From positions 1-53,796 of the IMG/VR virus record IMGVR_UViG_3300044820_000029: DNA of 53,796 nt; one strand, written 5' to 3'. Shown here piece after piece: positions 10,467 to 11,141 of the stretch. Numbering within the stretch: the stretch's first letter is position 1; each line of letters begins with the position of its first letter. A program made the position numbers and the translations under genes. This stretch comes from a virus. Lineage: Duplodnaviria; Caudoviricetes. Under the pieces are notes generated by a model. It was not told the DNA's origin and did no database searches. It saw only the letters and a program-made list of their open reading frames with translations.

Positions 10467-11141
10467 ATGCGAATCCTTCTGGTCAACAGCACCGACCCGA
10501 CATTTCCGCCCGGCTTTGTCGTCGAACGTGCGTTCGACACCGCCGAGATGTTCGATTATCTCGAATCGTACAGCTTCGACACGATCGTTTTGGTCAACCC
10601 CACCGTGAAGGACATCACCGACCTTCGCACCCGTAAGGTCAAGATACCGGTCTTGGTGCTCTCCGACGCCGACCCGGTGCCGCACTTGGACGCCGGCGCC
10701 GATGATGTGGTGCACAGCCGTACGTCGCCCAGCGAATTGTCCAGCCGTATCCGAGCAATTGTACGCCGCGCCAACGGCAACGCCGGATCGACGCTGTCCG
10801 CCGGCGGGCTCACGATCGACATGAACAGCAACCGCGCTGACGTGTTCGGCGAACCGCTGCACGTCACCAACAAGGAATACGCCGTCCTTGAATTGCTGCT
10901 GATGCGGCGCGGGTCGATCATCACCAAGGCGCACATGCTGGCGTACCTGTATTCCGGCATGGACGAACCAGAAATCAAGATCATCGACGTGTTCATTTGC
11001 AAGATCCGCAAAAAGCTGACCGCGGCGGGTGTCGGCGACCTGATCGAAACGGTCTGGGGTCGCGGCTACATGATCCGGGCGGAAGCGCGGGTGCAATCGC
11101 CCGGATTGGCGCCGACGTTGCAAGAACTGGCGGAGGTATAA
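10467..11141 (+). CDS. ctrA: CtrA-like OmpR-family regulator with a degenerate receiver domain
   Basis: [39 protein letters not shown] and IETVWGRGY are near-identical to the CtrA DNA-binding domain as I recall it. The receiver lacks the acidic pocket, the phospho-Asp and the Lys. Confidence 0.88.
   Translation: [224 protein letters not shown]

What the first reader, a model, noticed from the sequence alone, without database searches (positions are those of the whole stretch)
10467..11141. Phage-encoded CtrA mimic with an intact DNA-binding domain and a dead phospho-receiver
Seen: the C-terminal domain ([24 protein letters not shown]...IETVWGRGY) closely matches the alphaproteobacterial cell-cycle master regulator CtrA. 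The receiver is shortened. The acidic pocket reads VNST rather than (I/V)EDD, the Asp51 position (YDIILLD in CtrA) reads FDTIVLV, and the conserved TKP reads HSR. The protein ends LAEV, not the Ala-Ala ClpXP tag of Caulobacter CtrA. It has its own promoter with one full and two partial palindromes (10405-10447). Known: CtrA~P silences the chromosomal origin in Caulobacter and drives division, pilus and flagellar genes. Inference: a phosphorelay-independent CtrA, either constitutive or dominant-negative, that freezes host replication or division or alters receptor expression. With RlpA next door and CtrA-like boxes in the genome, this is the best candidate here for an undescribed system.
Basis: partly seen in the sequence, partly recalled or inferred. 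Interest (0 to 1): 0.92.

Follow-up and report, generated by a model that had tools for sequence, protein, structure and literature searches.

The report
Phage CtrA look-alike with dead receiver
A tailed phage carries its own copy of the bacterial cell-cycle master regulator CtrA that keeps the DNA-binding half but has lost the phosphorylation switch, so it probably works without the host's signalling relay; many related phages do the same.

Summary
The best family match is CtrA (178 bits; next family 91; CtrA cut-off 350). The DNA-binding domain keeps 29 of 32 columns that are invariant in 21 cellular CtrAs. The receiver keeps its fold but lacks helix alpha1, both pocket Asp, the acceptor Asp (V43) and the Lys (S84).

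The window is an uncultured siphovirus genome. The gene sits in the replication module behind VRR-NUC, a slot that four related viral contigs also fill with a CtrA-like gene (Glu or Ala at the Asp51 position). Of 24 two-domain viral CtrA-likes, 19 lack that Asp.

A homodimer model of the receiver uses the alpha4-beta5-alpha5 face (0.75; best control 0.01).

Best reading: a phosphorylation-independent, constitutively dimeric CtrA-family transcription factor.

Not supported: CtrA boxes are not enriched in the phage (none perfect; 6 with one mismatch, 4.7 expected). Host and targets are unknown.

Receiver-less phage CtrA genes are already in print (roseophage RDJL; Fogg 2019). My literature searches found no description of the pseudo-receiver form. 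I rate it a new variant of a known kind.

The parts
10467..11141 (+). CDS of the CtrA-like atypical response regulator (224 aa plus stop)
   Evidence: ORF list. CtrA model NF045991 scores 178 bits, the best family. Alignments A1 and A2.
10467..10778 (+). Pseudo-receiver domain, residues 1-104. It lacks alpha1. S8 and T9 replace the pocket Asp-Asp, V43 replaces Asp51 and S84 replaces Lys101. The alpha4-beta5-alpha5 face is kept.
   Evidence: Pfam Response_reg scores only 11.1 bits, E 0.016, at 10518-10751, and gave no hit at E up to 1 in hmmscan. AlphaFold block pLDDT is 84-95 with strands and helices in receiver order. Column checks. Homodimer model interface at residues 54-61, 70-80 and 89-106.
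10788..11078 (+). Winged-helix DNA-binding domain, residues 108-204, with a CtrA-type recognition helix (171-187)
   Evidence: Pfam Trans_reg_C, E 3.8e-17, residues 128-202. 29 of 32 columns invariant in 21 cellular CtrAs are kept; the changes are L152I, H160Y and L180I. Foldseek matches effector domains at TM 0.85-0.88 normalised to the target.
11097..11114 (+). C-terminal tail motif S-P-G-L-A-P (residues 211-216), shared by Asp51-less CtrA-likes. Function unknown.
   Evidence: Alignment A2. A regex count finds it in 9 of 76 non-Asp representatives and 0 of 56 Asp representatives. It is one of two six-frame matches in the window and the only one in this gene.
10406..10432 (+). Promoter-like site of the gene: -35 TTGACA plus GTAAAC, then TATAGT. 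It belongs to a phage-wide promoter family.
   Evidence: Perfect 12-mer copy. Family alignment with a TAxxxT-like hexamer downstream. Not called by the generic scan because of the 15-nt spacer.
10402..10450 (.). 12-nt inverted repeat (10402-10413 / 10439-10450) flanking the -10 region, with direct repeats at 10408-10419 / 10438-10449 and 10411-10417 / 10430-10436
   Evidence: the repeat finder.
10432..10448 (+). Degenerate CtrA-type box TAAA-N7-TCAACC, starting at the last T of the TATAGT hexamer. Candidate autoregulatory operator (inference).
   Evidence: The same geometry occurs at 3829-3845 (TAAA-N7-TTAACC, followed by AT) behind the hexamer of the promoter at 3804. The pattern was written after seeing both sites, so 2 found against 0.12 expected is not an independent test. 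Relatives L007 and L009 carry GGTTAAC just after their -10.
10019..10396 (+). Upstream neighbour, a VRR-NUC-like nuclease and the conserved left flank of the CtrA-like slot
   Evidence: PHROG 824, E 8.3e-28; Pfam VRR_NUC, E 0.0025. The order VRR-NUC then CtrA-like is seen in L007, L009, L016 and L017.
11147..11570 (+). Downstream neighbour, an RlpA-like DPBB protein with an N-terminal membrane or signal segment. The reading frame is broken near 11384.
   Evidence: DPBB_1, E 7.9e-16, on the second piece. Three-frame translation. One surplus base in a GCG run. In L016 both pieces match the same frame, judged from the tblastn coordinates.

Best explanation
The gene encodes a phage-borne member of the CtrA branch of the OmpR/PhoB family that has become an atypical, phosphorylation-independent response regulator.

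Shown by sequence and models:
- The DNA-binding domain is CtrA-type, with an almost unchanged recognition helix and an unchanged activation loop.
- The N-terminal domain keeps the receiver fold and the alpha4-beta5-alpha5 face.
- That domain has lost helix alpha1, both pocket Asp, the acceptor Asp and the conserved Lys.

Inferred:
- It cannot take a phosphoryl group from the CckA-ChpT relay. By recall, alpha1 is a main docking surface for phosphotransferases.
- It lacks the Ala-Ala end of the ClpXP degron.
- It dimerises constitutively through alpha4-beta5-alpha5.
- It binds CtrA-type sites (TTAA-N7-TTAA and TTAACC half-sites) whatever the host's cell-cycle state.

It is made from its own sigma-70-type promoter inside the replication module. 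Its likely targets are the host CtrA regulon and two degenerate boxes on phage promoters, its own and the rightward early promoter at 3804. There it would act as a shut-off or timer. The direction of the effect on the host (mimic or blocker) is not decided by the data.
For: Family:
- CtrA model NF045991 scores 178.2 bits; the next family scores 91.2.
- In each of 5 alphaproteobacterial genomes the best match is the ctrA locus (150-160 bits); the next best scores 73-115.
- In the careful tree of 83 rows, 66 CtrA-like rows separate from 17 other OmpR paralogues with support 94/58. Query plus P0002 has 100/100, and with P0035 and viral L006 95/88.

DNA-binding domain: 29 of 32 cellular-invariant columns are kept. 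Helix 171-187 differs from all 21 cellular CtrAs only at L180I. T153 matches the T170 determinant of PMC6847485 (passages read; mapping).

Dead switch: column checks. No alpha1 in the model, mean pLDDT 85.5. Response_reg scores 11.1 bits against a cut-off of 30.2. The phage has no HATPase_c kinase domain.

Dimer: G77-A78-D79-D80, E90, R94, A97, R100 and R101 are invariant in cellular CtrAs and kept here. The homodimer model of residues 1-106 scores 0.75 against a best control of 0.01. The runs agree in at least 91% of contacts and the partner's pLDDT is at least 89. In the tool's calibration the mark was reached by 20 of 30 solved homo-pairs and 1 of 23 single chains.

Selection rather than decay:
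- P0002 is 60% identical over 226 columns with two one-residue gaps and has the same V-N-P at the acceptor position.
- The slot is conserved in L007, L009, L016 and L017. L016's DNA polymerase is 71% identical.
- 19 of 24 two-domain viral CtrA-likes lack Asp51: Glu 5, Ile 5, Ala 3, Asn 2, Phe 2, Val 1, Gly 1.
- Many receiver-less viral forms carry a short heptad-like or CxxC N-terminus instead.
Against: - No perfect CtrA box exists in 53.8 kb, and one-mismatch boxes are at chance level (6 against 4.71). No target is shown.
- The two promoter-proximal boxes are degenerate and were found post hoc.
- The protein scores far below the CtrA equivalog cut-off (178 against 350).
- Its DNA-binding domain is 55% identical to cellular CtrAs, which share 72% among themselves. 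One changed invariant column lies in the recognition helix, so specificity may have drifted.
- The branch joining it to CtrA is not strongly supported (94/58), and its place inside the CtrA-like radiation is unresolved.
- The dimer model may reflect memory of solved OmpR-family dimers. It used my own 16-row alignment, so the calibration holds only roughly.
- The structure model also rests on only 16 sequences.
- The host is unknown. No cultured relative was found (DNA polymerase about 30% at best among the 25 rows listed, all 1696 records below 60%). There are no expression data.
Confidence: 0.7

Rival explanations
1. Anti-CtrA (dominant-negative). The protein occupies CtrA boxes without activating, or forms dead heterodimers with host CtrA through the conserved alpha4-beta5-alpha5 face. 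This would switch the host CtrA regulon off, for example releasing the block on the origin or stopping division and pilus or flagellum genes.
For: All alpha5 and beta5 residues that are invariant in 21 cellular CtrAs are kept (G77, A78, D79, D80, E90, R94, A97, R100, R101). A mixed dimer is therefore conceivable. The DNA-binding domain is CtrA-type.
Against: The loop between helices 2 and 3, which in this family contacts RNA polymerase (recalled), is kept almost unchanged: Y-S-G-M-D-E-P-E against Y-G-G-M-D-E-P-E. A pure blocker would not need this. Five viral relatives carry Glu at position 51, the change used in the laboratory as an active-like CtrA allele (PMC10589892 passage calls D51E phospho-mimetic).
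Confidence: 0.15
2. Purely phage-directed regulator. The CtrA ancestry is only history, and the protein now recognises phage operators such as the TAAA-N7-TYAACC elements at the two promoters. It times early-gene shut-off and has no role at host CtrA sites.
For: Two look-alike elements sit in the same register on the -10 hexamers of the promoter at 3804 and of its own promoter. L007 and L009 have GGTTAAC just after the -10 of their CtrA-like genes. The gene is fixed in the replication module. The DNA-binding domain is more diverged than among cellular CtrAs.
Against: There are only two such sites, and they are degenerate and defined post hoc. The recognition helix is nearly identical to CtrA's, so host boxes would be bound as well. 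This reading is compatible with the main one rather than exclusive of it.
Confidence: 0.2
3. A passenger or decaying host-derived ctrA copy with no present function. The receiver changes would be neutral erosion.
For: The receiver is only about 35% identical to cellular CtrAs, and four of five active-site residues are gone. The neighbouring RlpA-like gene is frameshifted in this assembly.
Against: The frame is intact at full length. The pseudo-receiver is confidently folded (block pLDDT 84-95). 20 of 24 receiver columns invariant in cellular CtrAs are kept, and they cluster on the dimer face. A 60%-identical homologue has the same architecture. The same slot is occupied in four related phages. 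19 of 24 viral two-domain homologues repeat the loss of Asp51.
Confidence: 0.05
4. Still a switch, but with another input. The pseudo-receiver would sense a ligand, a redox change, a partner protein or Ser/Thr phosphorylation instead of Asp phosphorylation, as some atypical regulators do.
For: Fold matches include RitR, a redox-sensing receiver derivative (PDB 5u8m, 5vfa). S66 is kept. A conserved C-terminal S-P-x-L-x-P tail of unknown role could be a docking peptide.
Against: No ligand pocket or conserved Cys is evident in the pseudo-receiver across alignment A2. The homodimer is predicted without any modification.
Confidence: 0.07

Closest known systems
Cellular CtrA of Alphaproteobacteria (NCBIfam NF045991; receiver solved in PDB 4qpj)
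   Same: Two-domain OmpR-type layout. It is the best-scoring family. The recognition helix and activation loop are nearly identical, 29 of 32 invariant DNA-binding columns are kept, and the alpha4-beta5-alpha5 residues are conserved.
   Different: No acceptor Asp, no acidic pocket, no Lys101 and no alpha1. It is 224 aa against about 231-250. It has no Ala-Ala end. It scores 178 bits against a cut-off of 350. It is encoded by a phage, not a chromosome.
Roseophage RDJL Phi1/Phi2 'transcriptional regulator CtrA' (gp32, 151 aa; PHROG 31800)
   Same: Phage-encoded CtrA-type DNA-binding domain, 50.5% identical over 97 residues. It is independent of Asp phosphorylation by construction (Fogg 2019, PMC6363796, passage read).
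   Different: The RDJL protein has no receiver at all and lies between gafA-like and rcc01866-like genes. This protein keeps a folded pseudo-receiver. The window has no homologue of the RDJL neighbours gp33 or gp31 (tblastn, E up to 0.01).
Atypical, phosphorylation-independent OmpR-family regulators (HP1043, PDB 2hqr; GlnR, PDB 8hih; ChxR, recalled)
   Same: Receiver-like domain without a working phospho-acceptor, fused to a winged helix. Both PDB entries are among the fold matches. There is a weak GlnR N-terminal domain hit (E 0.15). Dimerisation through alpha4-beta5-alpha5 is predicted.
   Different: Those are chromosomal regulators of unrelated regulons and are not close in sequence. This one derives from the CtrA branch, is viral and also lacks alpha1.
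Host-CtrA-controlled phages ('lytic deferment'; Mascolo et al. 2022, PMC9437464)
   Same: Alphaproteobacterial phages tie their early genes to the CtrA circuit through CtrA boxes in promoters (passages read).
   Different: Those phages use the host's phosphorylated CtrA, and the passages read mention no phage ctrA gene. This phage brings its own regulator and has no enriched CtrA boxes.
phiCbK-like phage GcrA homologue (PMC3556154)
   Same: Precedent for a phage carrying a copy of a Caulobacter-type cell-cycle master regulator (passage read).
   Different: A different protein family. No GcrA domain is present in this window.

Membership tests
CtrA (NCBIfam equivalog NF045991) | Score at or above the curated cut-off of 350 bits | tested here: not met
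   178.2 bits, model positions 43-222 of 224.
CtrA (NCBIfam equivalog NF045991) | CtrA is the best-matching family, and the best hit in alphaproteobacterial genomes is the ctrA locus | tested here: met
   CtrA 178 bits against PmrA 91. In 5 of 5 genomes the top match is the ctrA locus at 150-160 bits; the next best is 73-115.
CtrA (NCBIfam equivalog NF045991) | Branches with CtrA to the exclusion of other OmpR-family paralogues | tested here: inconclusive
   66 CtrA-like rows against 17 paralogues, support 94/58, not starred. The position inside the radiation is unresolved.
CtrA (NCBIfam equivalog NF045991) | Phospho-acceptor Asp51 with acidic pocket (Asp8, Asp9) and Lys101 | tested here: not met
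   V43, S8, T9 and S84 in those columns. 18 of 21 cellular CtrAs have Asp51.
CtrA (NCBIfam equivalog NF045991) | C-terminal Ala-Ala type degron for ClpXP (feature recalled) | tested here: not met
   The protein ends A-E-V. 8 of 21 cellular CtrAs end in Ala-Ala.
CtrA (NCBIfam equivalog NF045991) | Binds TTAA-N7-TTAA | not testable with these tools
   Indirect only: the recognition helix is conserved, and no box enrichment is seen in the phage.
OmpR/PhoB-family response regulator | C-terminal winged-helix Trans_reg_C domain | tested here: met
   PF00486, 62.6 bits against a cut-off of 26.2.
OmpR/PhoB-family response regulator | N-terminal receiver (Response_reg) domain | tested here: inconclusive
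   By sequence, 11.1 bits against a cut-off of 30.2. By fold, strands and helices in receiver order minus alpha1, and full-length Foldseek matches to PrrA, PmrA and DrrD at E 1e-14 to 1e-17.
Atypical (phosphorylation-independent) response regulators | Receiver-like domain lacking the acceptor Asp and/or pocket residues | tested here: met
Atypical (phosphorylation-independent) response regulators | Orphan: no partner kinase encoded nearby | tested here: met
   No HATPase_c match in the whole record. The neighbours are nuclease, polymerase and RlpA-like genes.
Atypical (phosphorylation-independent) response regulators | Active (dimeric, DNA-binding) without phosphorylation | not testable with these tools
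   The model supports a homodimer (0.75 against best control 0.01; 20 of 30 solved pairs and 1 of 23 single chains reach the mark). It does not show one.
Phage receiver-less CtrA (RDJL gp32 type, PHROG 31800) | CtrA-type DNA-binding domain encoded by a phage | tested here: met
   PHROG 31800, E 5e-26, residues 116-212. 50.5% identity to RDJL Phi2.
Phage receiver-less CtrA (RDJL gp32 type, PHROG 31800) | No receiver domain; flanked by gafA-like and rcc01866-like genes | tested here: not met
   A pseudo-receiver is present. No homologue of RDJL Phi2 gp33 or gp31 in the window.

The most novel reading that the evidence does not exclude
Alphaproteobacterial phages have repeatedly captured the CtrA DNA-binding domain and stripped it of phosphorelay control. 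They do this by killing the receiver (Val, Ala, Asn, Gly and other residues at position 51, loss of alpha1), by a natural Asp51-to-Glu change, or by swapping the receiver for a coiled-coil or CxxC N-terminus. This would make a widespread, undescribed class of viral cell-cycle hijackers that impose a CtrA-on or CtrA-off state on the host during infection. The conserved S-P-S-L-A-P tail would be a new docking peptide for a host factor.
Probability: 0.35. Interest if true: 0.8.

Novelty: new variant of a known kind. Interest (0 to 1): 0.62.

Why it matters
CtrA is the master switch of the alphaproteobacterial cell cycle and is normally gated by phosphorylation and timed proteolysis. A phage-made CtrA that ignores both gates would be a direct viral handle on host replication, division, motility and pilus genes. 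It would complement the known cases where phages merely read host CtrA.

The survey here suggests the trick is common:
- 19 of 24 two-domain viral homologues lack Asp51.
- 76 of 132 representative CtrA-like clusters lack it.
- Several receiver replacements exist.

These natural variants are ready-made separation-of-function alleles (Asp51Glu, alpha1-less, degron-less) for work on CtrA dimerisation, ChpT docking and proteolysis. They also mark which uncultured phages infect CtrA-using hosts.

Tried and rejected
Tried without result:
- Megablast of 7000-27000 against the phage collection: no match.
- DNA polymerase by tblastn: no isolate above about 30% identity among the 25 rows listed, and all 1696 records below 60%. 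No host could be inferred.
- tRNAs: none.
- Genome-contig scan: 597 relatives, but the best 80 are all 39-47% identical cellular CtrAs from many orders, so no donor lineage emerges.
- Metagenome scan for close relatives, meant for a dN/dS test: 95 relatives, none close. L265, listed at 61% for its best segment, is an ordinary Asp51 CtrA split in its assembly. No dN/dS was possible.
- GcrA domain: none. Histidine-kinase ATPase domain: none. Homologues of the RDJL gafA-side neighbours: none.
- Perfect CtrA boxes: none in the window and none in 12 related viral loci.
- The phage promoter 12-mer is absent from the other 191 of 193 loci held at the time. The two that match are cut-outs of the window itself.

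AU test of one origin for the slot-sharing phage genes (query, P0002, L007, L009, L016, L017): p = 0.082, not rejected. The group was named after seeing the tree.

Considered and rejected:
- The promoter 12-mer as the CtrA-like protein's site. Its half-sites are 7-8 bp apart and inverted, not the 11-bp repeat of OmpR-type sites.
- Neutral decay (see rivals).

Literature. Searches found no paper describing a two-domain phage CtrA with a degenerate receiver. I read passages only of PMC9437464, PMC10589892, PMC6363796, PMC5721377, PMC8601537, PMC3070671 (no mention of CtrA), PMC13392355, PMC3556154 and PMC6847485.

Limits of the samples:
- The tree used 25 of 80 viral loci, 18 of 80 genome loci, 21 of 30 paralogue loci and 19 proteins (the query plus 18 of the 119 other listed homologues).
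- The Asp51 counts depend on automatic alignments. At least one row, P0121, is misaligned.
- The query itself is atypical, which biases those lists towards atypical proteins.
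Full report
THE OBJECT. The window is a single IMG/VR virus record of 53,796 bp. Its first 804 bp repeat its last 804 bp at 92% identity. The genome is therefore essentially complete and either circular or terminally redundant. 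It encodes portal, head-morphogenesis, scaffold and major head proteins, a tape measure, tail and tail-fibre proteins and a lysozyme. It also has a replication block: primase-helicase, PD-(D/E)XK/DUF2800 exonuclease, Enc34/gp2.5-type SSB, family A DNA polymerase, a GIY-YIG homing endonuclease and a VRR-NUC nuclease. No cultured phage is close: the DNA polymerase reaches only about 30% identity among the 25 rows listed, and all 1696 records are below 60%. Megablast finds nothing.

The finding's ORF at 10467-11141 (+) is the next gene after VRR-NUC. It is followed by an RlpA-like DPBB gene.

CHECK OF THE OBSERVATION. Every residue-level statement holds. Against 21 cellular CtrAs:
- The pocket is N7-S8-T9 where they have E-D-D.
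- V43 stands in the Asp51 column.
- H83-S84-R85 replaces T-K-P.
- The protein ends A-E-V.

Three gaps shorten the receiver. The first gap removes helix alpha1, and the AlphaFold model (mean pLDDT 85.5) shows coil between strand 2-6 and strand 18-22. Pfam sees only the C-terminal domain. A six-frame search with Response_reg finds a faint 11.1-bit remnant.

The DNA-binding domain is CtrA-like. The CtrA model is the best family by 87 bits. 29 of 32 columns invariant in cellular CtrAs are kept. The helix at 171-187 differs from them at one conservative position.

FAMILY PLACEMENT. In five alphaproteobacterial genomes the best match is always the ctrA locus. A maximum-likelihood tree of 83 rows puts the protein inside a CtrA-like group of 66 rows, apart from 17 other OmpR-type paralogues (94/58). 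Its firm relatives are P0002 (100/100), then P0035 and the viral contig L006 (95/88). Deeper branches are weak.

The protein fails the CtrA equivalog cut-off (178 against 350) and lacks CtrA's defining switch. I therefore do not file it as CtrA but as a CtrA-derived atypical regulator. No donor lineage is visible: the best 80 genome hits, from many orders, are all 39-47% identical.

IT IS NOT ALONE.
- A scan of IMG/VR gave 100 relatives, of which 80 were kept.
- Among 24 two-domain viral proteins, 19 lack Asp51: Glu 5, Ile 5 (three near-identical), Ala 3, Asn 2, Phe 2, Val 1, Gly 1. Five keep it.
- Four viral contigs share the window's replication module with the order VRR-NUC then CtrA-like. 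These are L007, L009 and L017 with Glu and L016 with Ala. L016 has a 71%-identical polymerase and an RlpA-like gene behind the regulator.
- An AU test does not reject a single origin of these slot-sharing genes (p 0.082).
- Of 80 viral loci, 24 are two-domain, 12 have a short N-terminus with CxxC, and 15 have a heptad-like N-terminus by either of two crude rules, with more by eye. The rest are bare or unclear.
- Among the 150 best representatives of 50%-identity clusters, plus P0026 as reference, 132 cover the receiver and 76 of those lack Asp51. This count is biased by the atypical query and by automatic alignment.
- A tail motif S-P-(S/G)-L-(A/V/I)-P after the DNA-binding domain occurs only in non-Asp forms in that sample: 9 of 76 against 0 of 56.

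MECHANISM. The residues that stay invariant in the pseudo-receiver lie on beta5 and alpha5: G77-A78-D79-D80, E90, R94, A97, R100 and R101. A homodimer model of residues 1-106 pairs exactly alpha4, beta5 and alpha5, scoring 0.75 against a best control of 0.01. The runs agree in at least 91% of contacts and the partner's pLDDT is at least 89. In the tool's calibration 20 of 30 solved pairs and 1 of 23 single chains reach the mark. Dimers of this kind are solved for the family, so the pass shows likeness, not binding.

Taken together with the lost active site, the lost alpha1 and the lack of any kinase in the phage, the most economical reading is a constitutive dimer that binds CtrA-type DNA without the CckA-ChpT relay. 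The activation loop is kept, and five viral relatives have Glu51. These points favour a mimic over a blocker, but neither is shown.

TARGETS. The phage has no perfect TTAA-N7-TTAA, and one-mismatch sites are at chance level. The gene has its own promoter-like site, one of a family built on tGG-TTGACA-(A/G)TAAAC-C: 28 sites at up to 2 mismatches against 2.06 expected. This family is specific to this phage.

Directly on the -10 hexamer of this promoter, and of the rightward early promoter at 3804, lie TAAA-N7-TCAACC and TAAA-N7-TTAACC(AT) in the same register. L007 and L009 have GGTTAAC just after their -10. This suggests autoregulation and early shut-off by a CtrA-type protein. The pattern was defined after the fact and remains a hypothesis.

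KNOWN OR NEW.
- Roseophage RDJL genes annotated as CtrA are receiver-less (151 aa). Fogg (2019) noted this in one passage.
- Mascolo et al. (2022) showed host CtrA acting on phage promoters.
- Atypical OmpR-type regulators are well known.
- Six literature searches found nothing on a phage CtrA with a retained but dead receiver, or on the wider pattern. Supplements could not be read.

I rate it a new variant of a known kind, of good but not extreme interest.

OPEN POINTS.

Noticed in passing
window, 28 sites, e.g. 3202, 3712, 10406, 18838, 30436, 36923, 41866, 47136, 50912, 52467: A phage-wide promoter family, tGG-TTGACA-(A/G)TAAAC-C, followed about 10 nt later by a TAxxxT-like hexamer. There are 28 matches at up to 2 mismatches against 2.06 expected (0 of 100 shuffles). 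The 13-mer is itself a near palindrome (GTTGAC-N-GTAAAC). It is absent from all other loci held.
   Followed up: partly
window 11147-11570, break near 11384: The RlpA-like DPBB gene is split between two frames by one surplus base in a GCG run. The homologue in viral contig L016 matches both pieces in the same frame, judged from tblastn coordinates. This is either an assembly error or a real pseudogene.
   Followed up: partly
window 1-804 and 52993-53796: The two ends of the record overlap over 804 bp at 92% nucleotide identity (97% at protein level), inside a primase-helicase gene. The genome is probably circular or terminally redundant, assembled from two variants, although it is labelled linear and 86% complete.
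   Followed up: partly
window 2071-3066 (-) and 42211-43251 (-): Two N6_N4 DNA methyltransferase genes (PF01555, PHROG 67). Whether either is CcrM-like (GANTC) was not tested.
   Followed up: no
window 3294-3701 (-), with the promoter pair at 3202-3213 and 3712-3723: A stand-alone 135-aa protein with an integrase-type Arm DNA-binding domain and no recombinase domain, in the regulatory region that carries promoter-family copies on both strands. No integrase was found among the ORFs scanned.
   Followed up: no
alignment A2; viral loci L007, L009, L016: Asp51-less CtrA-likes share a tail motif S-P-(S/G)-L-(A/V/I)-P-x-h-x-(D/E)-h right after the DNA-binding domain. Longer ones repeat S-P-S-(I/L)-V-P-A-x-G-Q-K at the very end. 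It is not seen in Asp51-bearing proteins in the sample. Function unknown.
   Followed up: partly
viral loci L034-L082: Many receiver-less viral CtrA-type proteins carry, in place of the receiver, either a short heptad-like segment of the type L-E-x-E-N-x-x-L-R-x-R-I-x-x-L-E (15 by crude rules) or a C-P-C-C-G type CxxC segment (12).
   Followed up: partly
L083 (Asaia sp.), L102 (Geminicoccaceae MAG), P0042 (Pseudoroseomonas globiformis): The apparently chromosomal CtrA of these bacteria has Glu, Glu and Arg in the Asp51 column. 18 of the 21 cellular proteins examined have Asp.
   Followed up: no
G004 contig C10, 40.9-57.9 kb (L168, L173, L178; Falsiroseomonas algicola): Three divergent CtrA-like paralogues lie within 17 kb in one genome. 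They form their own long-branched clade (100/96) next to CtrA. Their N-termini lack the E-D-D pocket.
   Followed up: no
window 9310-10014 (+) and 44668-45546 (-): Two GIY-YIG-type homing endonuclease genes sit right after the DNA polymerase and the helicase genes.
   Followed up: no
window 10917-10925 (residues 151-153): The query has Ile at the position matching CtrA T168 and keeps Thr at T170. These are the two residues reported to set promoter-class choice in Caulobacter (PMC6847485). Acetobacterales CtrAs have Val at 168.
   Followed up: partly
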